A stretch of DNA of 64,000 nucleotides, from IMG/VR virus record IMGVR_UViG_3300037225_000138, positions 3,416 to 67,415 of that record, one strand, 5' to 3'. The DNA comes from a virus. The position numbers and the translations under genes are program-made. The notes below the pieces were generated by a model. It saw only the letters and a program-made list of their open reading frames with translations, was not told where the DNA came from and searched no databases. Positions 3,001 through 64,000 of this stretch are shown here, one piece after another; the stretch's first letter is position 1; every line of letters starts with the position of its first letter.

Positions 3001-6000
3001 CCCCTGAAGATGTAGATAACATTCCCAGCACCCCTCTATGGAAGCAGAATGGGCGCAATGTCATTGGCGTTGATGATAGTTACATGAAAACTCATTTTTA
3101 TTCTAATTGGACAGAAGGAGGCAACAGTGCGGTATATCCGGAATGGAATCCTCATGGAGATATTCATGTAGCCAATAATGTTGATGACGAGTATAAACCA
3201 TTTGTCGCAGCACATGAGATATGGGAGGAATATAAGGTAGAGAAAAAAGGATTACTGTATTCATCCGCACAGGGATCGGCACACGAACAGTCAAATAAGA
3301 TGGAGATACCTCTGAGGCGATTCTATGATGAGAAACTAAAGCCAAATGGAGGCAAGGTATTATCTATTAATGTCACCGATGAAGGATTCAACTTCAAGTA
3401 TAAAGAGACTGCCGATGGACCGGAGAAAGAGGCGACTATGTTCCCCGATGGGCACATGGAAGATGGTAAGCATGGAAATGATTTAGGAACTGAAATTGAA
3501 AACAAACCGAACAAAAATATTTCAGTAAGGGATTTGAGTAATAAAACCGTTCCTGAATTAGATAACCTTGTTACTCAACTTGAATCTGGGATGAAGGATA
3601 TTTTAGATCAGGGAGATACTAAGCGTGCTGAAAAATTAAATGAACTTATTGGGAAGGTTATAGATGCCCGTAACGAAAGAAAAACTATAAATGAAAAACC
3701 TAACAAACCAAATCCTCCTACTGGCAAAGGAGAAGAAAATAAGTTACCAGGAAGCGCAGAGACAGGTAAGGGCCCAGTTGCTTCAAAAGGTGAGGAGAAA
3801 CCTAATAAGTACACCCCAGAGCAACAAAAAGCCGTAGATGCCATAAACAAGGACTATGAGACACAGATAGCAGAAAAAGAAGCCATAATCCCGAAAGCAG
3901 AGGAGGACATGCGTAAAGCCTTATTAGAGGCAGATAAGCGTAATGGATTGTTTGGTGACACTAAACCACTCGAGCCGGATGAAATCATCAAGAGAGAGGA
4001 TCAGGGCTTCAAATACGATGAAGAAACACGCAATGCAGTTAAGAAACCTTTTGAGGAGAAGATTGCTGAAGCCAAAAAGGATATTGCCAGTCTGAAAAAA
4101 GAGCAAAAATCCAAGATTGGAGAAGTGGAGAAACAAACTTCATTATTTCCCGCAGAAGAAAAACCTACTGAGAAGCCTGAAATAAAACAAGGGATAGAGT
4201 TCAAAGGCAAAACCTATACTGATGTGGATGAGGTACAGGATGCTTTCGATAAAGGAGAATTAACTTTTGAAGAGCAGAAACCCCTTATTGAGAAAGTCAG
4301 GAAATTTGAAGATGATCTTAAAAAAGGAGCTCAGGAGCAGGCAAAGAACATAGGTAAAAGACTTGGTTCCACCGCAGATGAGGCAGAGATTAATTTGAAA
4401 AAGAGTGCTGATGACAAGAACACGCTTTTTATGAAGTTTCTTCCTAATTTCGGGATAAGCAAAGGGAATACCGTTCTTTGGAAGAACGTGTTTATGCCAC
4501 TCAGGGATAATTTAAGTAATTGGGTTGCAGGTAAGATGCAGGCAGGGCTTCAATCGCAAAACAATGCTCTACGATGGTTGGCAAAGGCCGGAGAGATGTC
4601 TTATCGTGGACTTGCACGAACACAGGCAGAGACTTTTGGCAAGAAAGGTCAGATGGGAGAACTGGAGATGAGAGGCACCACAGGTATCTATGCAACGAAT
4701 GAAAGCAATGATGTACTGAATAAACTCCGTGCCATAGTAGGGGGCGATCACGAATCATGGGAAAGAGCACGGAACGCATTGGATCCGGAAATATCAGCAA
4801 CACCATTGAAATATGGAGATTTAAGTGTTCCTGAAAAGAATCTCTATTGGGCAGTAAGGGATTGGAATACATGGGTACATGAGACGACCTATGCTTTAGA
4901 CTTGATTGATGCTAAAACATATCTGAAGTTTAAAGACCCACATACCGGAGAGGTATTATATCTCGGCAGGGCTTATGACACTCATATAACCATGCCCGAT
5001 GATAATGAGATAAAAGCATTCATAGGTAAGGGTGCGAATACTATCAGCGCAGACATATATAAGATGCGTCAGGAAGTGGATGAGTGGAAACAGGCTCATG
5101 CCATCAAAGACCCTACATATCTGACTGCACTTAGAGTAAGGCAGACCATTCAAAATAAAGCTATCAAAGAATACATGGATGGTATAATTGCAGATCATCC
5201 AGAATTTGTCAGGGATATTAAGCCGGGGGAAGCAATTCCAAAGGGATTCACTCAGTTAAGCCGGGCTCGTAGTTGGGGACCACTAAGAGGTAAGGCTGTG
5301 GCACAGCATATTATCGAGGACTTTACAGGATTCCATTATGCAAATCACATGGCGAATAGTATCTATGACGGATTGAAGTTATGGAACCGGCAGAAACTAA
5401 ATCAGTTTTACAGAGCATGGAGGACAACGCTTAATCCTTTCGTACAGACAGGAAACTACACAGGTTCACATTTCTTTGGTGCCATTAATGGATTTAACCC
5501 CTTGGAGATACTTGCCAGAAAAGGAGATTGGAAAAAAGAAGCAAAAGCAAGGACACCTTTATATAAGGCAGTGGAGAGATCGGGTGTTCTCTTGGAGTCC
5601 GGTGTCACAGGTGAGAAAATACCTGATTTTGCCAAAAAGACAAATATCTATAAAACGCTTACCGGAGATCAGACCACAATAGATAAGGCAAGGGACTTAT
5701 TTAACCGGGGGCAGAAACTCGCAGGGGAGAACTACATCAACGTGGAGAATAATGTCAAGGGTGCTGCTTATATGATCTGCAGAGACCAGGGATTAACTCA
5801 CGAACAAGCTATCCGGAGGGTTTATGACTCATTCCGTAACTATGCTCACATAGGAAAGATATGGGATGTAGCAGCTAAAGTACCGCTTGTAGGGCCTACA
5901 TTTATCAAGTTCCAAGCCGATATGCAGAGGATAATGCTTAATGGGATCACGATGAATCCACTTACCACAATAGGTAATTTTGCATTGATAAGTGCAGTAG

Positions 6001-7253
6001 GAACGTTATTTGCTGCCATGTCGGGGGAGTCAAAGGAGGAACAGGATATAAGAGAACACCGGAAGGGAATACCGTCTATTCCTCTGCCATTCAAGACATC
6101 AATACCATTAAGTTTCAAGATAGGTAAGTCTGAGATTAACCTTGCAAGATATCTTACTCCGTGGTATGCTTATCAGAGTGAGGATAACGCACAGGATATT
6201 TCCGACATGAGTAAGTTCTTGCCATTTGAAATTAAGAAGTTCGATAGTCCTCTCGAGGGAGAAAAGAAATATGGGCTTGGTTTTGGCGATGCCACATGGG
6301 GATGGATAGGATCTGTCCTTGCAGATAGGGATTTCCGTGGCATGTCAATACAGAATCCCTCAGCGAACAAATATCATAACCCTAATCCCACTACCGAGGA
6401 ACGCATTATGAACGTTCTGAACTATGTAGGAAGAAGTCAGGTGCCATTCTGGAGGTCAGGACAGGACATATATGATGGAGTGACGGGTAAGTTGGATTTC
6501 TATGGTAGAAAAAGAACATGGGAGCAGGCAATACTTAATAATGTCGTAAAGATTCAACAATTTGATAAGCCTGAACTCAAATCGTACATGGAACGCAATA
6601 TAACCTATCTCACAGGGAAATTTGCCGATTTGTCAAAACGTATGGGTGATGCTAATTCTGAGTTCCTGAGAGAAGTAAACAGGGCACAGGAGCAAGGTGT
6701 CTCTGATGAGGTATTGTCAAACATATATAAGTCTGCAGACAAAACAAGGTCAGGAAGGTTACAGAAGTCATTGGATGAGCAGGTACCAGTGATGAAGGAA
6801 CTCGAAAGACTTACTAATGTATATAAGAACTGGCACCCAGACGATCCATTCATCCAGGAGAACTATAAGCAGATAGAGGAGGGTAAGAGCCGAAGGTTTA
6901 ATGTTATGGACAACATTGACCTGCAGAAAAACTATCCACAGGAATTTAATCTTCTCAAGTCAAATGGACTCCTCAAAGAGCCGATAATACCTAAGTATTA
7001 CATGGGAGAGGAAGTCACAGACGATGAGAAAAAAGAATATGCCAATGTTTATTGGAGAGAGTATCTGCAAAATCTCGATTCATTCGTAGGTCTTACTAAG
7101 GAGCAGTTTGAGGAAGCCAAGAAACAAACCGTAGATCAGGGCATGTCGATTACTTCAGAAGGGCCACGAACGCAAACCATATTGCAGATACAGGCATCAG
7201 AATCCGCTCGTATTGCTTCGCAATGGGCAAAAATGATGTTCCGTTCAAAATAA
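1..7253 (+). CDS. Giant (>2400 aa) virion/ejection-type polyvalent protein, 5'-truncated by the window
   Basis: The frame is open from position 3 through the ATG at 42 to TAA 7253. It has Ala/Gly-rich helical N- and C-terminal parts, long charged coiled-coil stretches and an internal HExxE...AHE domain. A terminator follows. Confidence 0.6.
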   Translation, partial: NVQPTSKPEDRFIMDKIPSKPPSTYKSSYLDAVSRGIFKGTANLIRNIGYLTVDLPQQLKTTGTETMVKAAAKISGINSDTTKKYAGKIAEAINNGLYGGNTASLEKEGYEKAADFLDKTLTSILKATPEDKRGFGKALEGTGEFLPDLISMAAVPEAKAPLLVEYGLQGMLKMLEYFGVKSYVEGMREGKPVGENVIQSAESTAQAMAYNSIGVWSGEMGQIAKSMGAGVWTSEATKLFANSLGFAGIGKPEDVLQNLSMGVAFYGLSAPEVLKEMVNKRAMLGYMTATNNNIRMVSEMNVDPFKAREESFRLSVQAENETDPAKKAELLHQKTIVDNTIDIHSVTNNILKNPDGFIKSIQDNDLLSAREKKIWTNKIRTTIEETDPRKKEAAPVVENIDQMQKELNDAKNDENANPTEKEAKVNGLQKKINEEKGKAEKIFGKSVDEYNELSPENKQRDIEQIAKETADKAQKEVEAKQVEETKKAEEEKANIPAKEEWESWDKKARDEKAKSLLPTSGQKALNEKQKEKLYSDIKKWDERNKVQKSEVKGEESPLQKRMREAKEEAVSKVDYQGFLNDINKQVKEPATKEEKADLMGRIEKTVEKAGYKFEVDPDEDPDFSSVNISFEGEDVEPEQLPPVMQKIFDNYAKLMHESHENAIEAKPELKLGENNFANRDELFAHLEKNAVDENGELNKTWFDRELDAWPNIETVKAINEWTVDKKAEIKAKAEAAKPKEEIPTPIKEKEERTLTIRKKRSAAFKPGSRTYKAVTQPTNNFDEAALQFFVSGGRLKIDDFIAHTGYTKGGAEYKKYFQLLSNKGTRLDVFHEAVPESFGMEDKGAMDMTNAVIDLMKSYPSRGKMLDELERRQQEPMQYEPTEEEIQYERDQLLKSNKDLDNYDISEYEQAFADGKLNKNDYEELKKWLGEDEQRRTEQQNLDSELYGKEEGSGKGEHEKKPLRTAGTNEEKPSVRLWKNEKDTPESVRARFGVADQEFTPEDVDNIPSTPLWKQNGRNVIGVDDSYMKTHFYSNWTEGGNSAVYPEWNPHGDIHVANNVDDEYKPFVAAHEIWEEYKVEKKGLLYSSAQGSAHEQSNKMEIPLRRFYDEKLKPNGGKVLSINVTDEGFNFKYKETADGPEKEATMFPDGHMEDGKHGNDLGTEIENKPNKNISVRDLSNKTVPELDNLVTQLESGMKDILDQGDTKRAEKLNELIGKVIDARNERKTINEKPNKPNPPTGKGEENKLPGSAETGKGPVASKGEEKPNKYTPEQQKAVDAINKDYETQIAEKEAIIPKAEEDMRKALLEADKRNGLFGDTKPLEPDEIIKREDQGFKYDEETRNAVKKPFEEKIAEAKKDIASLKKEQKSKIGEVEKQTSLFPAEEKPTEKPEIKQGIEFKGKTYTDVDEVQDAFDKGELTFEEQKPLIEKVRKFEDDLKKGAQEQAKNIGKRLGSTADEAEINLKKSADDKNTLFMKFLPNFGISKGNTVLWKNVFMPLRDNLSNWVAGKMQAGLQSQNNALRWLAKAGEMSYRGLARTQAETFGKKGQMGELEMRGTTGIYATNESNDVLNKLRAIVGGDHESWERARNALDPEISATPLKYGDLSVPEKNLYWAVRDWNTWVHETTYALDLIDAKTYLKFKDPHTGEVLYLGRAYDTHITMPDDNEIKAFIGKGANTISADIYKMRQEVDEWKQAHAIKDPTYLTALRVRQTIQNKAIKEYMDGIIADHPEFVRDIKPGEAIPKGFTQLSRARSWGPLRGKAVAQHIIEDFTGFHYANHMANSIYDGLKLWNRQKLNQFYRAWRTTLNPFVQTGNYTGSHFFGAINGFNPLEILARKGDWKKEAKARTPLYKAVERSGVLLESGVTGEKIPDFAKKTNIYKTLTGDQTTIDKARDLFNRGQKLAGENYINVENNVKGAAYMICRDQGLTHEQAIRRVYDSFRNYAHIGKIWDVAAKVPLVGPTFIKFQADMQRIMLNGITMNPLTTIGNFALISAVGTLFAAMSGESKEEQDIREHRKGIPSIPLPFKTSIPLSFKIGKSEINLARYLTPWYAYQSEDNAQDISDMSKFLPFEIKKFDSPLEGEKKYGLGFGDATWGWIGSVLADRDFRGMSIQNPSANKYHNPNPTTEERIMNVLNYVGRSQVPFWRSGQDIYDGVTGKLDFYGRKRTWEQAILNNVVKIQQFDKPELKSYMERNITYLTGKFADLSKRMGDANSEFLREVNRAQEQGVSDEVLSNIYKSADKTRSGRLQKSLDEQVPVMKELERLTNVYKNWHPDDPFIQENYKQIEEGKSRRFNVMDNIDLQKNYPQEFNLLKSNGLLKEPIIPKYYMGEEVTDDEKKEYANVYWREYLQNLDSFVGLTKEQFEEAKKQTVDQGMSITSEGPRTQTILQIQASESARIASQWAKMMFRSK

Positions 7254-7276
7254 TTAAATCTCACGTATCGTCATAC

Positions 7277-7314
7277 AAATAAGGGGATGCCGTAATGGTT
7301 TCTCCTTATTTTTT
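7277..7314 (+). terminator. Rho-independent terminator
   Basis: AAATAAGGGGA...TCTCCTTATTT stem followed by a T run, after the giant ORF. Confidence 0.75.
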
Positions 7315-7343
7315 GAATAGCACAAACAAATATTGTAAAAAGA

Positions 7344-7375
7344 TTTGTTTATAAGCAAAAGTGTTTATATCTTTG
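7344..7375 (+). promoter_or_regulatory. Bacteroidota sigma-A type promoter
   Basis: TTTG (7344-7347), 20-nt spacer, TATCTTTG (7368-7375), upstream of the replication operon. Confidence 0.8.
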
Positions 7376-7397
7376 TTTCGTTAAATTTAATTATGAC

Positions 7398-55738: not shown

Positions 55739-56464
55739 ATGACTCTTTGGGATATATATAACTTGGTGAACCTTATTGTGAATAAGGACTTTGGTGGCAA
55801 CATTATTACTCCGGAACAATTCAAGGATCTCATCAAGGTAGTGAATATTGACCTTTTCCGGAATAAATATGGACTGCCGGAGGAATATCAGCCAGGGAGA
55901 CCTATCCCAAAAGAGTATGCCGAGATAACCCTCAAGAACATGGACGACCTGAAGGCCTTCAAGGTGTTCCTGAAGAACGTGCCTCTTGTCAATGGCACAA
56001 TACCTTATCCGGCTGACTACTGTCATAGAATTGAACTAACAAACAATTTCACCATAAAGATCAATAAGGTTGACACAGTGCTCCCGAAAGGAATAGAGGT
56101 GCTTACGGAGTCACAGCTATCGAGCAGGCTTGGAAACTACACCAAGAGGCCGGTTTCAAGGATGCCGATATGCACCTTCAGAAGTGATGCGATTTACATT
56201 TGGCCATTCGAGGTATCAGATATAGTTCCCGATCCTATAACTCAGGTAGATTTTGCATACTTCAGATGGCCGCATGATCCAGTGTTTGCTTATGTCATCG
56301 GAGATGGTGAGATTACTTATGATGCTGTCAATTCAGTGGAACCAGAATGGCCTCAAGACGAATACATCACTCTCACTGCGATGCTTCTCAAATATATCGG
56401 AATCAATCTTCGTGCCGAGGAGATAGTTCAGATTGCTAATCAACAAATTCAAACAGGTCAATAA
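55739..56464 (+). CDS. Tail ring/adaptor protein 1
   Basis: IY..V..I.NK...G.ITP..F...Y.R.P..P...Y pattern of crAss-like ring proteins. Confidence 0.7.
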   Translation: MTLWDIYNLVNLIVNKDFGGNIITPEQFKDLIKVVNIDLFRNKYGLPEEYQPGRPIPKEYAEITLKNMDDLKAFKVFLKNVPLVNGTIPYPADYCHRIELTNNFTIKINKVDTVLPKGIEVLTESQLSSRLGNYTKRPVSRMPICTFRSDAIYIWPFEVSDIVPDPITQVDFAYFRWPHDPVFAYVIGDGEITYDAVNSVEPEWPQDEYITLTAMLLKYIGINLRAEEIVQIANQQIQTGQ

Positions 56465-56475
56465 AACTCAAAACT

Positions 56476-56619
56476 ATGTGCCCCTATGTCTCAAATGCTC
56501 AGCGCCGGAAATTTCATCAACTTGAAAGTGAAGGCAAAATCTCACATAAGACAGTGAGAGAGTTCGATAAGGCAAGTAAAAATAAGCACTTACCAGAACA
56601 CGTAAAGAAAAGAAAGTAA
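56476..56619 (+). CDS. Small basic conserved phage protein (47 aa, not in the ORF track)
   Basis: PYVSNAQRRKF....GKIS..TVREFD.ASK...LPEHV. Confidence 0.65.
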   Translation: MCPYVSNAQRRKFHQLESEGKISHKTVREFDKASKNKHLPEHVKKRK

Positions 56620-56646
56620 GCCATGCAGAAACGTAACTAACTGATT

Positions 56647-57300
56647 ATGCGCATAATAGAATATGTTGACTTGGTTCAGGACTTCTTTGCAAATGATGTT
56701 GTAGGGGATATGAAATCCGTTTATCATCCGGGGGTGATCATTGGTCATCTACGCGATGTATTCCGTCAGATAGTCTATGAGACATGGGAGAAGGGTAAGA
56801 GGGAGAGTGACTTCAGTCAACTGGACGCATGGAGTCGTACATATACGGCTGATGTATTTAGTCAGACGGGCAAGAGTGCTTATGCGTTTCTACCCATTAC
56901 GCCTATTCTACTGCCAGACGGACTTGGAATAAGGCAAGTCTGTGACAATGCCGATAACACAAACGTCTTTGCACCTATTGAAGCAGGGGCTAATGTGGTG
57001 TTTGCGGAATTGGAAGTTGACACGATGGATGACACGCCTACATACAGGCTCGAGCAGAATAACCTTGCCACAACGGATGGAGAGCAAAGCCATATACTCA
57101 AACTTGACAGATTGCCTGTTGCTCCAAATGCAATAACAAAACTTGATATTCTTATGATAGTTTCGTTAGAACAACTCGGAGACTACGATGAGGCCCCGAT
57201 ACCGGCAGGAGAAGAGGATAACATTGTGCAGAGAGTCATTGATGTGATGATGCACAAGCCGAAGCCTGACCCTACTATTGATAATGAACCCATAACCTGA
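56647..57300 (+). CDS. Tail ring/adaptor protein 2
   Basis: Position, plus LP..PI.LP.GLGI. Confidence 0.6.
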   Translation: MRIIEYVDLVQDFFANDVVGDMKSVYHPGVIIGHLRDVFRQIVYETWEKGKRESDFSQLDAWSRTYTADVFSQTGKSAYAFLPITPILLPDGLGIRQVCDNADNTNVFAPIEAGANVVFAELEVDTMDDTPTYRLEQNNLATTDGEQSHILKLDRLPVAPNAITKLDILMIVSLEQLGDYDEAPIPAGEEDNIVQRVIDVMMHKPKPDPTIDNEPIT

Positions 57301-57305
57301 TAGCC

Positions 57306-58115
57306 ATGAGTAACGCTATACCTAAGACCCCTGGATTCGTCACGATAAGATATGTCGTGATGTCTATTTTAAATAGGTTGGGGGAATACAGCATGAAATC
57401 GTATAAAAGATTATGTCAGATAGCGATAGAGGGATATACAGAGGAACTTGCGTTATTTCACATAAATAACTCTCTTGAAGTTGTATATCTTCATATGAGT
57501 ACGGCCAAGACAGTTGACCTTCCTGCCGACTTCATTACATATACAAAAATAGGGATTCCTGTCAACGGTAAGTTAAGAGTATTGACTCAACATGATCAAC
57601 TCTTATTCCCGAGAGTATTTGATGATACACAAGTGGCAATAGGGAATACTACAGTTAATAGTGGTACCGGAATTTCTGATGCCCTTTTCTTTACCGATCA
57701 CTGGAGGAATGGCCAATTTGTCGGAGGACTCTATGGGTTGCCAGGAGGTCTTGATCGTGCTTATTATCGTGTTGACATGGAAAGAAGGCAGATAGTCTTT
57801 TCAGGAAGCACCCCGAGGTCTGAAATCGTCCTTGAATACATCGGTACCGCATTAAAGCCAGATGGGTCATCGCTGATACCCCGTGAATGTGTTGATGCTC
57901 TTCGTAATTATGTTCTGTGGCAGATGGTTATTAACGACATGACAGGGTTTATGACTGGCCGGGCTCAGATGAAAACAGCAATGGCTGAGATAGGAAGGCG
58001 CAAACAGGAGTTCACCGAATCCATAGCAGCGTTACGTTCCTTTAATTTTGAGTTTACTGCGAATGAACTATTAAGTGTACTTAGATCAGGTTATATGCAA
58101 TCACCTAAACGATGA
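57306..58115 (+). CDS. Tail tubular/ring protein 3
   Basis: LPADFITYTKIG, YRVD..RRQIVFS, IVLEYI and EC.DALRNYV.W motifs. Confidence 0.7.
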   Translation: MSNAIPKTPGFVTIRYVVMSILNRLGEYSMKSYKRLCQIAIEGYTEELALFHINNSLEVVYLHMSTAKTVDLPADFITYTKIGIPVNGKLRVLTQHDQLLFPRVFDDTQVAIGNTTVNSGTGISDALFFTDHWRNGQFVGGLYGLPGGLDRAYYRVDMERRQIVFSGSTPRSEIVLEYIGTALKPDGSSLIPRECVDALRNYVLWQMVINDMTGFMTGRAQMKTAMAEIGRRKQEFTESIAALRSFNFEFTANELLSVLRSGYMQSPKR

Positions 58116-58183
58116 AAAATCAATCTGGCATATATCAAATGAAAAAGGCGATAATTAATCAGGAGGCTTCGCTGTGCAACTGA
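58112..58183 (+). pseudogene. 23-aa remnant, probably of a GIY-YIG endonuclease gene
   Basis: MKNQSGIYQ start with the YIG half missing; overlaps both neighbours. Confidence 0.5.
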
Positions 58184-59781
58184 AAGATGTAAAACGATTT
58201 TTAGCATTGAACAGTGATGCGATCCCTGCTGATTTAAAACCAGAGGAGATAACCCACGCTCTGAATATGAGGATGGCGAGTAGCAACGAGAAGCAGGGTG
58301 CCGGTGATGCTGAGACGTTACAGGGAGAAGTTGAAATACCTATCAATGCTACTGCAGACATCACTTATTATGGGCAGGCCATCGGTGGCAACTTTCTATA
58401 TCAGGGATGGGATGAAATAAAAATAGGCACTCAAGTTTGGATGCGGAGGAATTGGGATGTCGCTTATCCGGGGAGCAAGGTTTATAATGATAATGAGGCA
58501 AACAGGGCCATCTATGGAGGTCTTTACACATGGAACCAGATAATGTCAGTTGATTTTGCACCTGATGGATGGCATGTGCCTACGGATGCAGAGATAACTG
58601 TTTTATTGACTTATATGGGGGGGTTGATGCTTGCCGGAGGACACATGAAAGAAGTGGGGGAAGAACATTGGACTGATCCGAATACAGGAGCCGATGACTC
58701 ATTTGGCTTCAGAGCATTGCCTGGAGGTAAGTTTGATAGCGTATTTGAGTTACTCGGAGCTAATGGGTTATTCTGGTTACAGGATGAGAGTATATTTGCT
58801 GTTTCGATAGTCACCACTAAGAATGGTAGTTATTCTATGGATATAGCTGGTGACGGTCCGATAAATATTACTTGGGGTGACGGTTCCGCAGATACACCAT
58901 ATACACTTACGGGGACACCGCATACTTTTACTCATGCTTATACAGGGGTAGCAAAGACGATTACTATTTCCAATCCGGAAAATATAACCAAATTTTTTGC
59001 ACTTAATGATAACATAACAAGTATCACTGGTCTCAATCTATGCGATGGGCTCATCAATACCAATCTGAATAACAATCTAATTAGTTCTTTAGTGCTTGGG
59101 TCATGGCCTTCGTTAGAAAGTTTTAATGTGGGGTCAAATTTATTAACAAGTTTCATCGGATTACCGAGTTGGGTAAACCTGACAGATTTGACTATTGACG
59201 ATAATCCTATTACTACTGTTTTATTTTGTGCTGAATGGGTGAATCTTGTGGCCTTGTATTCCTACGGTGGCTTATTTGCAAGTGTTACGTTACATAAAGA
59301 ATGGGTGAATTTGACCAATCTGGAGATAGCTGATAATCCGAATGTGGCGAGTGTGGGTACTTTTAAAGAATGGGTTAATCTATATTCTATTAATGTGAGT
59401 TATACGAACATAACACACCTTGATACATTTGTTGAATGGATAAACCTTGCCCGGCTATACACAAGAGACTGTCCCAATATGGGTAATGTGACTGTGTTCC
59501 CGGCATGGGTTCACATGGAAACTCTTTATTTAGCCAGTTGTCCAAACATAACATCTCTCGTCAATTATGCAACATGGACTGTACTCGTATTTTTGACTGT
59601 AAATGGATGTTCGATAACTGTGGCTAATGTGATTAACCAAATATTGATTGTATTGGATTCTTCGGGCATTACGACTGGGAATATAGACTTAGCAGGGGGG
59701 ACAAATGCAGCACCGGCAGGATTGGGTATCACCGCAAAGAATAACCTCATTGCAAAAGGAGTAACCGTAACTACAAATTAA
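58174..59781 (+). CDS. Tail stabilisation (muzzle) fragment 1, fused to the N-terminal part of a FISUMP domain and a PKD/LRR adhesin module
   Basis: LNSD......PEE..HALNMR.....G.AE...G (muzzle start); IGTQVWM..N...YGGLYTW...P.GWHVPTDAE...GFRALPGG...FW (FISUMP); WGDG; WVNL LRRs. Confidence 0.7.
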   Translation: MQLKDVKRFLALNSDAIPADLKPEEITHALNMRMASSNEKQGAGDAETLQGEVEIPINATADITYYGQAIGGNFLYQGWDEIKIGTQVWMRRNWDVAYPGSKVYNDNEANRAIYGGLYTWNQIMSVDFAPDGWHVPTDAEITVLLTYMGGLMLAGGHMKEVGEEHWTDPNTGADDSFGFRALPGGKFDSVFELLGANGLFWLQDESIFAVSIVTTKNGSYSMDIAGDGPINITWGDGSADTPYTLTGTPHTFTHAYTGVAKTITISNPENITKFFALNDNITSITGLNLCDGLINTNLNNNLISSLVLGSWPSLESFNVGSNLLTSFIGLPSWVNLTDLTIDDNPITTVLFCAEWVNLVALYSYGGLFASVTLHKEWVNLTNLEIADNPNVASVGTFKEWVNLYSINVSYTNITHLDTFVEWINLARLYTRDCPNMGNVTVFPAWVHMETLYLASCPNITSLVNYATWTVLVFLTVNGCSITVANVINQILIVLDSSGITTGNIDLAGGTNAAPAGLGITAKNNLIAKGVTVTTN

Positions 59782-61532
59782 TGAGTTTATCAGCCGAAAT
59801 ATTATCCCTTTCTTATGGTAGTGCGGTAGCCACAAAAACTTCTGCCTTAAAAACCGATTATTTGTCGGTAAGGCTTATAAAGAACATTGGTTTTCTTAAT
59901 CCCAAGCAACCGTCATACGTAACCAATATACTGCTTTGTGGTAACTGCGTGGATCCTACAACAAGAAACCTTTATGTCTTTTATATTGACACCTTCTATG
60001 GTTCTGCATGGATTATAGAGATAAACGTTGATACAAGAGTTCAGTCAGTGGTTTATTACGACAAGTACAATGCCATTGGCTTTGATCCTCTACATAAATT
60101 CCAGAATGCAAAAGTAGTCTTTGGCCGGTTGGTGTGGACGGATAATAATGCTCCCATCTATCAGATGGACATTAAAAGGGCCAAAAACTCATTCTATTAC
60201 AAGATTGGCTATGGTCAGTACCCAAATACGGCAGAATGGAATGCGGTAACATCTTATGGCATTGATCAGATAGTTTCCAATGGTAATTATTTCTATAAGA
60301 GTATTGTTGATCATAATGTAGGATACGAACCATGGTCGGATAATGGGATTCATTGGGCAAGGCTCTGCATGATAGAAGACGCTTATTATTCTATGAATAT
60401 TGAGAATTTCTATTTTGAGCCTATGCCTCCCAAACATGCCCCGGTAGTGCAATATTATTCCGATGTAAGCCGTCAGGTCAATAGTCTCCGACAGACATTA
60501 TTCCAGATTGCCTACCGATATGTTTATATGGATTGGAGAAGGAGTACGTTTTCTCCCGCAAGTATCGTCCCTATGCCAAATGGAGAAGAAGAGACAGCTA
60601 CAGGCTTGGCTAATGAGATGACATCTCTTAATAATGCCTTAAATATCCTTGTTAATACTGGTGGTGAGGAGGTAAGACAGATAGAGATTGTCGCAAGAAG
60701 TAGTAGTGATATTTCTAAGTGGTTTCTTATTAAAACTATTGATAAGTTCAGCGTGCAAGAAAAGGGTGGTGAAATATCTGGTGTGGTAAAACCATCTTAT
60801 GTGGGACTTGGATTATCTATTCCTTACCCGAATGTGATGAATGGAACGGTGGGGAATCCTTCTCAGGTGGGTGCAACAATCACAATACCAACGCCTACTG
60901 TGGTAAATCATTATTTGACATCGAGCATCTTAGATATGCATTGGAATGCTAACGATTATGGCATAGTATTAGGGCAGGATGCCGTGATAAGCATATTTGG
61001 AGGTTCTGCTACTACATTAACATCATTCCCTTCATGGATAACGGTTTTCGAGACTATTCATAATACTCCATTATCGGCAGGTGCAACGATAATTAATGGG
61101 CAGACAATAGGCATTACTCCATCTTCAGTAAACACAGGGCCACAAAGATCAGGGATAGTCGTGATAACGGATGTTATGGGTAACTCAACGTCTATTATGG
61201 TGACTCAATATACCTCTGCATCTTCTCCTACGGTGTCAATTCTTATAAATCCTTTAGAAGCAGGGGGGATGACATTATCTAATACTTCGGGTAGTGCAAC
61301 AAATGGCTCTCCCGATGTTGATACTACTTTTACCCCGGACAATCCGGCTTATGGATATAACGTTCCAATAACGATATATTATTCCATAACGAAAAATGGT
61401 GCAAATGCGGGGTCTGGCAACATTTTAGTATCAAACAAGAGAAGTAATACCAAAACATTAGTTATGACAAGCAATGCTGCGCCAGGGGATGCTATAATAG
61501 TCTATCTAATCTCATCAATAATAATCGTATAA
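59781..61532 (+). CDS. Muzzle fragment 2: FISUMP C-terminal end, muzzle propeller segment, CBM5/12-like insert and BACON-like tail
   Basis: LSY...K.DYLSVRLIKN; LVWTDN; FQIAYRYVYMD..RSTFSP.S; NTG...VRQIEI.AR; SWITV...NTG.QRSG.V.IT....VTQ. Confidence 0.7.
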   Translation: MSLSAEILSLSYGSAVATKTSALKTDYLSVRLIKNIGFLNPKQPSYVTNILLCGNCVDPTTRNLYVFYIDTFYGSAWIIEINVDTRVQSVVYYDKYNAIGFDPLHKFQNAKVVFGRLVWTDNNAPIYQMDIKRAKNSFYYKIGYGQYPNTAEWNAVTSYGIDQIVSNGNYFYKSIVDHNVGYEPWSDNGIHWARLCMIEDAYYSMNIENFYFEPMPPKHAPVVQYYSDVSRQVNSLRQTLFQIAYRYVYMDWRRSTFSPASIVPMPNGEEETATGLANEMTSLNNALNILVNTGGEEVRQIEIVARSSSDISKWFLIKTIDKFSVQEKGGEISGVVKPSYVGLGLSIPYPNVMNGTVGNPSQVGATITIPTPTVVNHYLTSSILDMHWNANDYGIVLGQDAVISIFGGSATTLTSFPSWITVFETIHNTPLSAGATIINGQTIGITPSSVNTGPQRSGIVVITDVMGNSTSIMVTQYTSASSPTVSILINPLEAGGMTLSNTSGSATNGSPDVDTTFTPDNPAYGYNVPITIYYSITKNGANAGSGNILVSNKRSNTKTLVMTSNAAPGDAIIVYLISSIIIV

Positions 61533-61544
61533 AAAACAAATATC

Positions 61545-61970
61545 ATGGCAAGTTTAATTCCGAAGTTCGCAAAAAAAGAGATCACCGATAATTGGGTGAA
61601 CAATGAGACATGGAAACTCATGTTATTGAAAAACACCTTCACTCCAAATGCTGGCACTCAACAGTTTGTAGCAGATGTGTTGCCTGCAACGTATGAGATA
61701 ACTGATTCTGGAGGTGTATATACTGCAGGAGGTGTTGCTATATCAGGGAAAGCATCACTGGCCGATACTAATAACTATTCTCTTGATGCAAATGATGTAA
61801 GTATTGGTCCGGGGGCAACACTGACTTATCGCTATGGTATTCTTTTTAAAGACACAAGGAATCAGGCTACATCTCCGATTCGAGCCATTATTGACTTTGG
61901 AGATCAGTCAGTAGTCAATGGAACGAGTATCATTGAATGGAACGCACTTGGAATAATCTATTTGACATAA
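61545..61970 (+). CDS. Small phage tail-associated beta protein
   Basis: K.MLL...FTP.......DV....EI.....YTAGG...IDFG......GT..I.WNA.GI family motif. Confidence 0.75.
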   Translation: MASLIPKFAKKEITDNWVNNETWKLMLLKNTFTPNAGTQQFVADVLPATYEITDSGGVYTAGGVAISGKASLADTNNYSLDANDVSIGPGATLTYRYGILFKDTRNQATSPIRAIIDFGDQSVVNGTSIIEWNALGIIYLT

Positions 61971-61974
61971 TAAA

Positions 61975-64000
61975 ATGATCTTCTCTCACGACACGGATAT
62001 TGATTCAGCCTTTTATAACGATAAGGTCTTAGACATTATTGATGCTGGTACTATGGCTGAACCTTTTACTTATGTTCCTATAAAGGCGGGACACATGGAA
62101 CTTGTAGGGGGTAATGCTATTGTCTTTGGGAAGATCACCGAAGGAGAAGATATTATCACCCCTGAAATAACAACGGAGATATCTTATGTAGATGTCTCTG
62201 CCGGAGTATCGAGGAATGATCTTTTAATGGTTCCTCACATGTCATCTACGGTAATGACTCCAATTCCATTGACAGATCAAATAATAAGGACTGTATCTGG
62301 CTATCTAATAGTTTCTTTGCCGGCAACACCGATAGCAAATGACATATATTATATAACCATAGCGAGCATAACGCAGGGTATATCGAGCCGAACAGCCACT
62401 TATACAGTGTTAGCAGGAGATACCACGGCAGCCTTAAAAGCCGGATTGTTAGCCAGTCTTAATGATCCTGCTCATCTTTTTGTTGTAGCCCCGGGGTCTC
62501 CTGCAGGTGAGATTTGGTTATATAATGTGCATCGTGATTTTGGACAGATACCAACATATCAGGATGGTAATATCAATACTATTTTTGCAGATTACACTTA
62601 TAGTGCATACATATTAAGTCTTGGGAACACGATAAAATATCCTGAACTTAAATGTGGATCATCGCATGGATTCGGCATAGTGTATAAAGACAGGTCAGGC
62701 AGGCAATGTTCGGTGATGCCTATTGATCCTGTATATATTCCCTTTTACACAGAGCCAAATGGAGTATTGAATCTGCTCAGTTCTATTGTAAAATTAAAAT
62801 TCAAAATATTAAACGCACCTCCTGATTGGGCAGAGACTTATGAGATAGTCTATTTTGGCAATAACTCCATGGATTATTTCATGCAGATAAGAGAGAGTGA
62901 TGTAGCCAAACTTTCTTATGGCACTTATAGGTATTCTATGAATGTGCAGATGACATTTGATTGGACATACTTACAAAATAACAGGTGGAAAGTAGGCGCT
63001 TATGCTTGGGAGCCGGGAGACAGGGTAAGGCTTATCGGTATTATTGACCCTGCTACGGGCATTATTACAAAATACACGGTACTCTATGATTATGAAATTG
63101 AGAGTACGAGTACCCGTGATGGGAGTGCTATAAGTGGTGATTGGCTCATCTTCCAGGCGAAGAACCATCCACATGACCTTGATCTGGGAACTACCGCAAT
63201 AACTAATCTCACAGGCAATCTTAATGGGACGGTTGTTTATACTAAGGCCAATGATCCTACTGTTCCTACTGCGAGGATTGATACAATAACTCTTTCTGGT
63301 AGTAGTGGAACAGCAAAGATATGTGTAGGCACATTGGAGAAAACCGCCACATGGAATGTTGGCGGGTTGGCTGCAACAGTAACCGATTTCATTGCTTCAT
63401 GGCATGTCGCGTATGCTGCAATAGGTATTACATTATCTACTACAGGGATAGGCGACATTATCTTTACAGCATCGGTAGCGGGTGTTGATTTTCTTTCACC
63501 TACAAACATACTTGTCGAATTATATCGTCCAAAGAAAGGATTAGGCCAGACGATAGCTTATGGCACAGGGATGGTGTTTGATATTGCGGTTGATAGTAAT
63601 GGTCATCTATATCATAAAGGAGACGTGGATCAGGTTTTCGGTGTTACGGGCATCTGCACGACCCCGGCAACCGTTAATAACACCGCAAATGACTGTTGGA
63701 AATTTGACAGATTGAACTATGCTTATAATTCTGGCTCAGTAGAACCATTTTGGGCAGAGAGCATATTCCCGAGTGATTGGTGGGGCGGACAGGTTGTTGA
63801 TAATAAGTTGACATCATGTGGATTCCCATTTCTCTATGATCTCAGTTTAAGACAGGAAGTATTGGATGAGAGAATACGCAATGGAGGATTCTTGCTTACT
63901 GGAACGCGGACAAATAATATTGCACATTTCACCTATGATAGTTTTCGTGATCTTCCTGAGAAAGATGGCCCAATAACCGGATTAAGAGAGATAGGATATA
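61975..64000 (+). CDS. Muzzle fragment 3 (3'-truncated by the window; missing from the ORF track)
   Basis: Frame read from ATG 61975 with FYND, VP.KA..MEL..GN.IVFG.ITEG, KCG..HGFGIVYKD..GR and PPDWA..Y motifs; the window ends in the same frame with DLPE.DGPI. Confidence 0.75.
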   Translation, partial: MIFSHDTDIDSAFYNDKVLDIIDAGTMAEPFTYVPIKAGHMELVGGNAIVFGKITEGEDIITPEITTEISYVDVSAGVSRNDLLMVPHMSSTVMTPIPLTDQIIRTVSGYLIVSLPATPIANDIYYITIASITQGISSRTATYTVLAGDTTAALKAGLLASLNDPAHLFVVAPGSPAGEIWLYNVHRDFGQIPTYQDGNINTIFADYTYSAYILSLGNTIKYPELKCGSSHGFGIVYKDRSGRQCSVMPIDPVYIPFYTEPNGVLNLLSSIVKLKFKILNAPPDWAETYEIVYFGNNSMDYFMQIRESDVAKLSYGTYRYSMNVQMTFDWTYLQNNRWKVGAYAWEPGDRVRLIGIIDPATGIITKYTVLYDYEIESTSTRDGSAISGDWLIFQAKNHPHDLDLGTTAITNLTGNLNGTVVYTKANDPTVPTARIDTITLSGSSGTAKICVGTLEKTATWNVGGLAATVTDFIASWHVAYAAIGITLSTTGIGDIIFTASVAGVDFLSPTNILVELYRPKKGLGQTIAYGTGMVFDIAVDSNGHLYHKGDVDQVFGVTGICTTPATVNNTANDCWKFDRLNYAYNSGSVEPFWAESIFPSDWWGGQVVDNKLTSCGFPFLYDLSLRQEVLDERIRNGGFLLTGTRTNNIAHFTYDSFRDLPEKDGPITGLREIGY

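What the first reader, a model, noticed from the sequence alone, without database searches (positions are those of the whole stretch)
58174..64000. Tail muzzle gene split into three polypeptides by nested adhesin modules
Seen: motifs I recognise as consecutive parts of one crAss-like tail-stabilisation (muzzle) protein lie in the right order across three ORFs. The start (LNSD..ALNMR..G) is in 58174-59781, the WTDN/FQIAYRYVY/IEI segment is in 59781-61532, and FYND/VP..A..EL..GN/FGIVYKD..GR begins at 61975. Each break coincides with a foreign C-terminal module that brings its own stop codon: PKD/LRR at about 58792-59781, and IPxPxV repeats plus BACON at about 60765-61532 followed by a whole extra 141-aa tail gene. 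Known: muzzle proteins of this type are normally one long polypeptide. Inference: fibre tips were recombined into surface loops, and the muzzle now assembles from complementing fragments, or is rejoined by an unknown RNA/translation-level process. That would make the tail tip a modular receptor-binding platform.
Basis: partly seen in the sequence, partly recalled or inferred. Interest (0 to 1): 0.85.

Follow-up and report, generated by a model that had tools for sequence, protein, structure and literature searches.

The report
Phage tail muzzle split into three genes
In this peat-soil phage, the large protein that closes the tail tip in its relatives is encoded as three separate genes, two of which end in sticky surface-binding modules, so the tail tip probably assembles from pieces and doubles as a swappable host-recognition platform.

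Summary
Three adjacent genes carry consecutive, non-overlapping parts of one muzzle protein: ORF1 aa 1-56, ORF2 aa 52-327 and all of ORF4. They map to positions 1-57, 67-289 and 292-1128 of a 1134-position profile built from 70 single-chain relatives. That family is homologous to the phiCrAss001 muzzle gp44.

The split is real and old. All 11 related IMG/VR loci of this clade keep the same gene order at 39-79% identity. The genome holds no other muzzle copy.

No evidence supports rejoining. Rfam finds no intron, the frame relations differ between relatives, and in another clade the first piece lies up to 4.4 kb from the body.

The most likely mechanism is non-covalent assembly of three chains. 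ORF1 would display Fib_succ_major and LRR modules, and ORF2 would display Ig-like/BACON-like modules. This is inferred, not shown.

Fission recurs across the family at three or more sites and in separate clades.

A split nozzle was described for Pseudomonas phage A1002 in 2026, so this is a new variant of a known kind. PKD, and BACON in the window itself, were not confirmed.

The parts
58174..58341 (+). ORF1 aa 1-56: N-terminal segment of the muzzle (homologue of the gp44 N-terminus, called the ring-joining domain in phiCrAss001), here acting as the anchor of an adhesin protein
   Evidence: hhalign A5 vs A6: positions 1-57, probability 97.1%, E 6e-11. Anchor-only HMM hits ORF1 alone in the whole genome, E 2.9e-5. 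A6 profile 1-156 aligns to gp44 1-155, E 3e-12.
58417..58788 (+). ORF1 aa 82-205: Fib_succ_major domain, the first foreign module; conserved in position in relatives
   Evidence: Pfam PF09603, E 1.3e-20, 74.9 bits. The same domain is present in the ORF1 homologues of L003, L007, L011 and L028.
58789..59781 (+). ORF1 aa 206-535 plus TAA stop: variable tip. It holds a WGDG motif (PKD not confirmed) and leucine-rich repeats (about aa 312-428). The TAA overlaps the ATG of ORF2 (TAATG).
   Evidence: LRR_4 29.0 bits, LRR_8 E 1e-4. Only 6-15% identity to relatives over this part. Junction sequence read.
59781..59933 (+). ORF2 aa 1-51: clade-specific leader with no counterpart in single-chain muzzles
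   Evidence: hhalign A9 vs A6 and vs A5: probability 0.5% and 0.1%. Conserved within the clade.
59934..60761 (+). ORF2 aa 52-327: second muzzle segment (first propeller strands and the following beta domain)
   Evidence: hhalign A3 vs A6: positions 67-289 (P0035 69-340), E 5e-50. phrog_14478 positions 164-278. 58-79% identity to relatives.
60762..61532 (+). ORF2 aa 328-583 plus TAA stop: variable C-terminal extension with two IPxPxV motifs and a BACON-like stretch
   Evidence: Motifs at 60819-60836 and 60885-60902. 16-39% identity to relatives. BACON reaches the Pfam cutoff only in the L008 homologue and has no Pfam hit in the window.
61545..61970 (+). ORF3, 141 aa: small conserved protein found only in phages that have the second break; probable tail accessory protein
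   Evidence: phrog_644, E 3.5e-14. Homologues in 12 of 12 three-piece sources and in none of the other loci. Model pLDDT 68.6. BFVD fold matches to small phage proteins, E 2.4e-6. PDB best is a Bxb1 tail-tip chain, E 0.21, TM 0.67.
61975..64000 (+). ORF4 aa 1-675 (continues over the contig end to at least 974 aa): third and largest muzzle segment
   Evidence: hhalign A4 vs A6: positions 292-1128, E 3e-144. HMM positions 295-1133. Continuation across the contig end.
57306..58115 (+). Upstream 269-aa virion structural protein (context: gene just before the muzzle pieces; a ring or adaptor role is not shown)
   Evidence: phrog_13977 'virion structural protein', E 4.4e-9. Conserved in all related loci. 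No PDB sequence match.

Best explanation
This is a true, ancient gene fission of a phiCrAss001-gp44-type tail muzzle gene into three genes, plus one inserted small gene. The muzzle most likely forms by non-covalent assembly of the three chains.

Proposed roles of the pieces:
- ORF1 supplies the N-terminal segment that in gp44 joins the muzzle to the tail ring. It carries Fib_succ_major and LRR modules outward.
- ORF2 supplies the next roughly 275 residues (the first propeller strands and the following beta domain). It carries Ig-like/BACON-like modules outward.
- ORF4 supplies the remaining roughly 840 profile positions.

Both breaks lie between predicted beta strands, in linkers. The four genes are separated by -1 to +12 nt, so coupled translation could keep them in step.

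The variable modules at the two new C-termini would act as exchangeable host-binding tips on a conserved core.

Shown: homology, order, non-overlap, conservation of the split, absence of another copy, and variability of the tips. Inferred: physical assembly, stoichiometry, outward display, the receptor-binding role and the role of ORF3.
For: 1. The three pieces are consecutive and do not overlap. ORF1 1-56, ORF2 52-327 and ORF4 2-end map to profile positions 1-57, 67-289 and 292-1128 of 1134. An HMM search gives the same picture.
2. The family is the crAss muzzle family. The A6 profile hits PDB 7qok_A 'Muzzle protein gp44' at E 3.6e-34. The AF2 model of single-chain relative P0035 (pLDDT 89.6, pTM 0.81) has 7qol_P/7qok_A as top Foldseek hits (E 1e-34). 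Podophage nozzles follow: SU10, Pa223, P22, VP1, T7 gp12.
3. The split is conserved. All 11 IMG/VR loci of this clade (L003-L011, L028, L032) have the same ORF1/ORF2/ORF3/ORF4 order with intact ORFs. L094 again has ORF1 and ORF2 as separate ORFs. In the 1.84-billion-protein library, 25 of the 27 best rows begin with the ORF2 segment at residue 1-8.
4. There is no second muzzle gene in the 67.4-kb genome (1128 six-frame segments).
5. Near-identical DNA lies in four further runs. Their contigs bridge 61532-61545 and 61970-61975, with no indels and no joints.
6. The cores are conserved and the tips are variable. Relatives carry other modules in the same places: Lcl_C, fn3, Ig-like, BACON.
7. In the P0035 model, break A lies between strands 54-56 and 68-75, and break B (340/343) lies between strands 323-334 and 350-354.
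8. The same gene is split elsewhere in the family. The anchor is a free 62-63-aa gene in one clade, and the C-terminal roughly 180-320 residues are a separate gene in others, including cultured Maribacter phage Panino.
9. There is a published precedent for a nozzle built from two proteins in phage A1002 (PMC13730344, passages read).
Against: - No direct evidence of assembly exists. There is no structure, no proteomics and no RNA data for this phage.
- The window's own ORF1, ORF2 and ORF4 were not folded. The fold evidence rests on a single-chain relative with about 11% identity to gp44.
- ORF1's own match to the full-length HMM is weak: E 8e-5 and only with filters off. Its strength comes from the clade alignment.
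- The ORF2 leader (aa 1-51) is unexplained.
- The upstream proteins could not be linked to the phiCrAss001 ring proteins by sequence, so 'ring-joining' is carried over from gp44.
- The only covalently fused ORF1-ORF2 form (P0027) is a singleton record.
- Residue-level mapping of the breaks onto the gp44 domains was not possible.
Confidence: 0.8

Rival explanations
1. The pieces are rejoined into one chain after transcription, translation or folding. Candidate routes are intron splicing, ribosomal frameshift, bypass or readthrough, and protein trans-splicing by a split intein.
For: ORF2 and ORF3 are in the same frame with only 12 nt and one TAA between them. One database record (P0027) encodes ORF1-like and ORF2-like parts as one chain, so covalent continuity at break A is sterically possible.
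Against: - Rfam (E up to 1) finds no intron or other relevant RNA family in 56000-64000.
- Frame offsets differ among seven relatives: ORF1 to ORF2 is 2,2,2,0,0,1,2; ORF2 to ORF3 is 0,2,0,0,0,0,2; ORF3 to ORF4 is 1,1,1,1,1,0,0. Several spacers hold extra in-frame stops.
- All stops here are TAA, and the long ORFs of the window are open under table 11, so there is no sign of stop reassignment.
- No intein or Hint domain appears in Pfam.
- The material to be removed is 0.4-3 kb of conserved, domain-coding sequence.
- In another clade, anchor and body are up to 4.4 kb apart with other genes between them.
Confidence: 0.03
2. ORF1 is not a piece of the muzzle protomer. It is a tail fibre that copied the muzzle's N-terminal segment as an adaptor to dock on the ring. 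The muzzle body (ORF2 plus ORF4) attaches by another route, for example through the ORF2 leader.
For: - In the A-only clade, two or three genes per genome start with the anchor: 62-63-aa mini-genes plus 509-1068-aa genes. The anchor therefore behaves as a portable adaptor that can be duplicated.
- ORF2 has a conserved 51-aa leader of unknown origin.
- The phiCrAss001 ring has 12 subunits against 6 muzzle chains (PMC10172136, passages read), so spare docking sites are conceivable.
Against: - In this genome ORF1 is the only carrier of the segment.
- ORF2 lacks it.
- The segment maps exactly to the missing positions 1-57, with no overlap.
Confidence: 0.12
3. It is an artefact or decay: assembly or sequencing errors, or a muzzle gene broken by mutations in a defective phage.
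For: The window comes from a metagenome contig whose ends do not close exactly; about 15 conserved residues are missing in ORF4.
Against: - The same architecture appears in contigs from 12 different datasets, spanning 7 distinct lineages at 39-79% identity with all ORFs intact.
- Contigs at 99% identity or more from four other runs show no indels.
- Both fragment ends have acquired conserved functional domains.
Confidence: 0.02

Closest known systems
phiCrAss001 muzzle protein gp44 (PDB 7QOK/7QOL; Bayfield et al. 2023, PMC10172136, passages read)
   Same: It is homologous. The profile of the single-chain relatives hits gp44 at E 3.6e-34, with N-terminal (1-155) and C-terminal (1028-1286) blocks aligned. 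It is also the best fold match. Both have a propeller core with domains inserted in loops, and the paper notes length variation by insertions.
   Different: gp44 is one 1371-aa chain, whereas here there are three chains plus an inserted gene. Identity is about 11% at fold level. This phage has a genome of about 67 kb and groups with Cellulophaga phi38:1-like phages, not with gut Crassvirales. Presence of the 'crass fold' was not tested separately.
Split nozzle of Pseudomonas phage A1002 (gp39 nozzle-rope plus gp42 nozzle-base; PMC13730344, Nov 2026, passages read)
   Same: Two gene products jointly supply the platform and the seven-bladed propeller of a podophage nozzle. One of them also carries the fibre attachment. 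The authors propose partition of an ancestral single nozzle gene.
   Different: It belongs to a different nozzle lineage, and homology was not tested here. It has two pieces rather than three. It was shown by cryo-EM, whereas here the split is inferred from sequence. Here the fission is seen recurrently across a family, with single-chain sister lineages at hand.
Cellulophaga phage phi38:1 gp097 (Pervagoviridae, Callevirus), annotated virion structural protein
   Same: It is a cultured relative whose 1324-aa protein covers profile positions 4-1124 in one chain. The gene neighbourhood is the same: portal, structural proteins, then the muzzle.
   Different: It is unsplit and has no ORF3 homologue within the locus fetched.
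Maribacter phage Panino 946-aa and 320-aa proteins (PP540027)
   Same: It is a cultured podophage of the same family, and its muzzle homologue is also in pieces: profile 11-818 and 865-1130.
   Different: The break is near the C-terminus, not at the window's sites. The record annotates the two genes without linking them, and the paper (PMC11590407, passages read) does not mention it.
Receptor-binding proteins with a conserved N-terminal anchor and exchangeable C-terminal tips (general phage principle, recalled rather than tested)
   Same: A conserved N-terminal docking part is combined with variable distal modules.
   Different: Here the anchor is itself a detached part of the tail-tip gatekeeper protein rather than a dedicated fibre domain.

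Membership tests
phiCrAss001 gp44-type muzzle protein | Sequence homology to gp44 over the N-terminal ring-joining/propeller start and the C-terminal propeller part | tested here: met
   A6 profile vs PDB: 7qok_A at E 3.6e-34, with blocks 1-156 to 1-155 and 778-1043 to 1028-1286. The window's three pieces align to A6 at E 6e-11, 5e-50 and 3e-144. The link from window to gp44 is therefore transitive.
phiCrAss001 gp44-type muzzle protein | Overall fold: propeller with Ig-like insertions and the large 'crass' domain | tested here: inconclusive
   Only the single-chain relative P0035 was folded. Foldseek top hits are 7qol_P/7qok_A (E 1e-34, TM 0.43-0.48). Blade number and the crass domain were not checked separately because no coordinates were available.
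phiCrAss001 gp44-type muzzle protein | One polypeptide per protomer | tested here: not met
   There are three ORFs with their own starts and TAA stops, and this is conserved in relatives.
phiCrAss001 gp44-type muzzle protein | Hexameric assembly at the tail tip of the virion | not testable with these tools
   No virion data exist for this uncultured phage.
Split nozzle (A1002 gp39/gp42 type) | Two or more gene products that together complete the platform and propeller of one nozzle protomer | tested here: inconclusive
   Complementary, non-overlapping homology and the absence of a full-length copy fit this. Physical complementation is not shown.
Split nozzle (A1002 gp39/gp42 type) | Homology to A1002 gp39/gp42 | not tested
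   The A1002 chains did not appear in the PDB copies searched. No sequence was at hand.
Intron-, intein- or recoding-interrupted phage gene | A self-splicing RNA, an intein domain, a reassigned stop codon or a conserved frameshift site at the breaks | tested here: not met
   Rfam finds none. Pfam finds no intein. The stops are TAA and the frames vary between relatives.
Pervagoviridae-like (Cellulophaga phi38:1-like) podophages | Shared structural gene set and genome size of about 65-78 kb | tested here: inconclusive
   The only cultured phages with a tblastn match to the family are 7 Cellulophaga records and Panino. Related contigs are 40-78 kb. No whole-genome or marker phylogeny was made.

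The most novel reading that the evidence does not exclude
The roughly 60-residue N-terminal segment of this muzzle family is a free-standing, portable anchor. It has been released from the muzzle body at least twice independently and is used to hang alternative adhesins on the ring-muzzle junction.

In one clade it exists as 62-63-aa mini-proteins beside adhesin-fused copies. Different anchor carriers could therefore share or compete for the docking sites and give mixed tail tips.

More generally, the muzzle has a few fission-permissive linkers that evolution uses again and again to turn a gatekeeper protein into a plug-in receptor-binding platform.
Probability: 0.35. Interest if true: 0.8.

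Novelty: new variant of a known kind. Interest (0 to 1): 0.62.

Why it matters
The tail-tip muzzle or nozzle is the gatekeeper of DNA and protein ejection in podophages, and it is usually treated as one conserved chain.

Three points follow from this finding:
- It can be cut at defined linkers, and the cuts are reused in separate lineages.
- Each new C-terminus becomes a site for exchangeable binding modules. This explains how such phages diversify host recognition without touching the conserved core.
- It marks natural split sites that could guide engineering of tail tips.

It also warns annotators that 'virion structural protein' fragments next to each other may be parts of one structural unit. 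Cultured relatives with unsplit (phi38:1) and split (Panino) forms make the idea testable.

Tried and rejected
- **Complex prediction**. I submitted ORF2 1-335, the ORF4 C-terminal 298 aa and ORF1 1-85 as partner. The result was 'no answer', score 0.00, and the controls were not run. It is evidence neither for nor against binding. The full heterotrimer (about 1400 aa) exceeds the tool's 1000-residue limit.
- **The look-up of sequencing runs**. No RNA holder is listed, so nothing can be said about transcripts or splicing from reads.
- **Read laying**. The listed contig pieces do not bridge 59781 itself, and some bins have no cover in some runs. No conclusion is drawn from those gaps.
- **PDB sequence searches** with the clade-only profiles of ORF2, ORF4, ORF3 and the two upstream proteins found nothing useful. 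Only the 70-sequence profile reached gp44.
- **tblastn of ORF4** against cultured phages found no match.
- **ORF3.** Pfam found nothing. The atlas lead to GP4 fibre I gp80 scored only 0.87 and was not borne out by Pfam or PDB, so I dropped the idea that ORF3 is an A1002/GP4-type fibre dimer docking on the IPxPxV motifs.
- **ORF2 leader** as a degenerate copy of the anchor: rejected.
- **P0027's own contig** could not be retrieved. The viral scan found none, and the metagenome scan gave only a 46% relative, which is split.
- **Promoter and terminator scan**: counts are no higher than in shuffles.
- **Supplementary files** of the papers were not opened. They might hold proteomics for Panino or domain tables for gp44.


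Full report
**What is there**

The window is bases 3416-67415 of a single 67,415-bp contig. Between 58174 and the window end there are four tightly packed + strand ORFs:

| ORF | Coordinates | Length | Notes |
|---|---|---|---|
| ORF1 | 58174-59781 | 535 aa | GTG start |
| ORF2 | 59781-61532 | 583 aa | |
| ORF3 | 61545-61970 | 141 aa | |
| ORF4 | 61975 onward | at least 974 aa | runs off the window |

- ORF4 stays open when the contig is read as a circle.
- Compared with relatives, about 15 conserved residues are missing exactly at the contig junction, so the contig is not closed precisely.
- The ORF1 stop overlaps the ORF2 start (TAATG).
- ORF2 and ORF3 are 12 nt apart, and ORF3 and ORF4 are 4 nt apart.
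- All three stops are TAA.

**Are the three ORFs consecutive parts of one protein?**

Yes.

- A first hint came from PHROGs. ORF2 aa 208-322 and ORF4 aa 208-305 match positions 164-278 and 510-599 of the same 1474-position family, phrog_14478.
- A profile of the conserved N-part of ORF2 was searched against 1.84 billion representative proteins and found 1030 relatives.
  - The 27 best rows are short forms like ORF2. In 25 of the 27 the match starts at residue 1-8.
  - From the next tier on, the hits are proteins of about 1100-1400 aa in which the ORF2 segment lies at about residues 70-345.
- Seventy of these long proteins were aligned as A6.

Profile-profile comparison against A6 gave:

| Piece | Profile positions | Statistic |
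|---|---|---|
| ORF1 aa 1-56 | 1-57 | probability 97.1%, E 6e-11 |
| ORF2 aa 52-327 | 67-289 | E 5e-50 |
| ORF4 aa 2 to end | 292-1128 | E 3e-144 |

The pieces do not overlap, and together they cover all but about 15 of the 1134 positions.

Two further checks support this:
- An HMM made only from the first 62 residues of the 70 long proteins hits one place in the six-frame translation of the whole genome, the start of ORF1 (E 2.9e-5; next best 1.9).
- The genome holds no further copy of the muzzle.

**What protein is it?**

- The A6 profile hits the solved phiCrAss001 'Muzzle protein gp44' at E 3.6e-34. The aligned blocks are at the N-terminus (profile 1-156 to gp44 1-155) and in the C-terminal propeller part.
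- An AlphaFold2 model of the single-chain relative P0035 is confident (pLDDT 89.6, pTM 0.81).
- Its best PDB fold matches are the two phiCrAss001 muzzle entries (E about 1e-34, TM 0.43-0.48). The nozzles of SU10, Pa223, P22, VP1, E1004 and T7 follow.
- The Nature paper (PMC10172136, passages read) describes gp44 as a ring-joining domain plus a seven-bladed propeller, with Ig-like domains and a large 'crass' domain inserted in propeller loops. It also notes length variation by insertions.
- The only cultured phages with a match are Cellulophaga phi38:1-like phages (Pervagoviridae) and Maribacter phage Panino.
- phi38:1 gp097 (1324 aa) covers profile positions 4-1124 in one chain.

**Is the split real?**

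Yes.

- All 11 IMG/VR loci of this clade have the same four genes in the same order, all intact, at 39-79% identity. L003-L011 were found with ORF4 and L028 and L032 with A6.
- A metagenome relative (L094) again has ORF1 and ORF2 as separate ORFs.
- Contigs at 99% identity or more from four further peat or permafrost runs show no indels and no joints. They bridge the ORF2/ORF3 and ORF3/ORF4 junctions.

**What sits at the breaks?**

- Break A. After the anchor, ORF1 continues with a Fib_succ_major domain (aa 82-205, E 1.3e-20). This domain is conserved in position among relatives.
  - A tip with leucine-rich repeats follows. It is only 6-15% identical to the tips of relatives. Those relatives carry Lcl_C, a second Fib_succ_major, fn3 or other modules instead.
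  - PKD was not confirmed.
- ORF2 starts with a 51-aa leader that is conserved in the clade but has no counterpart in single-chain muzzles or in the anchor.
- Break B. The conserved part of ORF2 ends at aa 327, which corresponds to P0035 residue 340. ORF4 aa 2 corresponds to P0035 residue 343, so the cut is seamless.
  - Against Panino the same seam appears: ORF2 324 to 282, and ORF4 4 to 286.
  - The ORF2 C-terminal 250 aa are variable (16-39% identity).
  - BACON reaches the Pfam cutoff only in the L008 homologue, not in the window.
- In the P0035 model both breaks fall between beta strands: 54-56 | 68-75 and 323-334 | 350-354.

**ORF3**

- Homologues occur in 12 of 12 three-piece sources and in none of the other loci examined. 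ORF3 therefore came with break B, or is kept with it.
- Its model is of moderate confidence (pLDDT 68.6).
- It resembles small uncharacterised phage proteins and the N-terminal part of an Agrobacterium phage 7-7-1 structural protein (BFVD, E 2.4e-6 to 9e-4).
- More weakly, it resembles a chain of the mycobacteriophage Bxb1 tail tip (E 0.21, TM 0.67).
- A role as a small tail accessory protein is a reasonable guess. Its partner is unknown.

**Rejoining?**

I found nothing in favour and several things against.

- Rfam at E up to 1 finds no intron.
- Pfam finds no intein.
- The ORFs of the window are long and open under table 11, and the three stops are TAA, so stop reassignment does not apply.
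- Frame offsets at each junction differ among the seven lineages, and several spacers contain extra stops. That excludes a conserved frameshift or readthrough device.
- One record, P0027 (861 aa), has the ORF1-like and ORF2-like parts in one chain. This shows that an insertion without fission is possible at break A. It is a singleton from one contig, so I treat it as a lead.

**The wider family**

I ran the A6 HMM over the + strand ORFs of 92 sources: 91 loci plus the window's own region. The set is biased and partly redundant. L003-L011 were fetched with ORF4, and L013-L092 are the best 80 of 351 hits to a profile built from single-chain proteins.

| Class | Sources |
|---|---|
| One ORF spanning the profile | 46 |
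| Three-piece form (own region included; its ORF1 piece passes only with filters off) | 12 |
| Only the anchor detached (L035 ambiguous at a contig start; L047 has two tandem mini-genes) | 9 |
| C-terminal roughly 180-320 residues as a separate ORF (includes Panino) | 10 |
| Single ORF cut by a contig end | 10 |
| Single ORF with partial profile coverage | 5 |

- In the anchor-detached clade the anchor is a 62-63-aa gene, or 210 aa in L046 and L053. It lies up to 4.4 kb upstream of the body.
- In that clade a second gene of 509-1068 aa begins with the same anchor.
- A tree of profile columns 300-940 places the three-piece clade next to single-chain lineages (clade support 1.0; parent node 0.986). 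The anchor-detached clade (0.997) lies elsewhere, and the C-terminal splits fall in two clades.
- The fewest changes of state are 2 for break A and 3 for the C-terminal break.
- An AU test rejects one clade for all break-A rows (delta lnL 380.9, p 3.5e-10). The group was named after a first tree had been seen.
- Fission of this gene is therefore recurrent and reuses the same linkers.

**How it most likely works**

Shown:
- complementary homology of the three pieces;
- long-term conservation of the split;
- no other muzzle copy in the genome;
- variable tips on conserved cores.

Inferred:
- The three chains assemble non-covalently into one muzzle protomer.
- The ORF1 N-terminus occupies the place of the gp44 ring-joining segment.
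- The Fib_succ_major/LRR and Ig-like/BACON-like modules point outward as host-binding tips.
- Close spacing of the genes favours matched amounts of the pieces.

A published cryo-EM precedent exists. The nozzle of Pseudomonas phage A1002 is built from two proteins that share the platform and the propeller, and one of them carries the fibres (PMC13730344, passages read). The main rival that keeps some weight is that ORF1 is a fibre using a copied anchor rather than a true piece of the protomer. In this genome the two readings nearly coincide, because ORF1 carries the only copy.

**Novelty**

- Searches for 'muzzle protein', 'crAss001 + muzzle', 'nozzle protein + gene fission', 'nozzle + podovirus + split into two' and 'crAss-like + tail + gene fission' found no description of a split muzzle in crAss-type or Pervagoviridae-like phages.
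- The two crAss papers that mention the muzzle do not discuss a split, nor does the Panino paper.
- Because a split nozzle as such is now known, I rate this as a new variant of a known kind. It is three-part, lies in the crAss muzzle family, couples each break to an adhesin module, and recurs in evolution.

**Limits**

- The window's own ORF1, ORF2 and ORF4 were not folded.
- The complex prediction gave no answer.
- No RNA runs hold this DNA.
- Supplementary files were not opened.

Noticed in passing
L030, L040, L043, L047, L049, L062 (e.g. L040:3009-3197 and 3202-5739; L047:4480-4665, 4677-4862, 4869-7385): In a separate clade the muzzle's N-terminal anchor is encoded as free 62-63-aa mini-genes (two in tandem in L047). 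Directly after them lies a 509-1068-aa gene that starts with the same anchor, and the muzzle body begins at profile position 63 up to 4.4 kb downstream.
   Followed up: partly
L001 (Maribacter phage Panino) 7521-10358 and 10472-11431; also L042, L055, L064, L075, L078, L079, L081, L085, L091: The muzzle homologue is split near its C-terminus. The large ORF often has a long extra C-terminal extension, and it is followed by a 181-320-aa ORF carrying the last roughly 180-270 profile positions. Panino is cultured, so this can be tested.
   Followed up: partly
window 63999/contig end and L002:1-3: ORF4 crosses the contig end. About 15 residues conserved in all relatives (pattern xLKVIQxxKETSIYx) are missing at the junction, so the contig is probably short by about 45 nt.
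   Followed up: partly
window 63172-63480 (ORF4 aa about 400-500): An insertion of about 100 aa in ORF4 is shared with L003-L006 and absent from L007, L008 and L011. It is another loop that tolerates extra sequence.
   Followed up: no
window 60225-60368 (ORF2 aa about 149-196): A motif of about 45 aa inside the muzzle piece (W..Y..DQIV..G..YK....G..P....W) matches as tandem repeats in giant proteins of the library: P0053 (2781 aa, 12 stretches), P0072 and P0076. It may be a small binding repeat embedded in a propeller loop.
   Followed up: no
L008:4775-5587 (also L009, L010): A 270-aa ORF with an N-terminus that looks like a GIY-YIG homing endonuclease (by eye, not tested) is inserted between the upstream structural gene and the ORF1 homologue.
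   Followed up: no
window 42-7253: A 2403-aa ORF lies downstream of the muzzle on the circular map and has no PHROG match at E 1e-5. In phi38:1 and Panino a very large gene occupies the corresponding position.
   Followed up: no
P0040 (1404 aa), residues about 105-280: A single-chain muzzle homologue has an Lcl_C-like module inserted after the first blade (Pfam E 1.3e-3, below cutoff). This is an insertion without fission, at yet another site.
   Followed up: partly
A6 profile positions 367-477: This sub-domain of the muzzle body also matches PDB chains 9c39_H and 9mt4_Q, labelled 'structural protein' (E 1e-3 and 4e-3), so part of the distal domain is shared with other solved phage proteins.
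   Followed up: no
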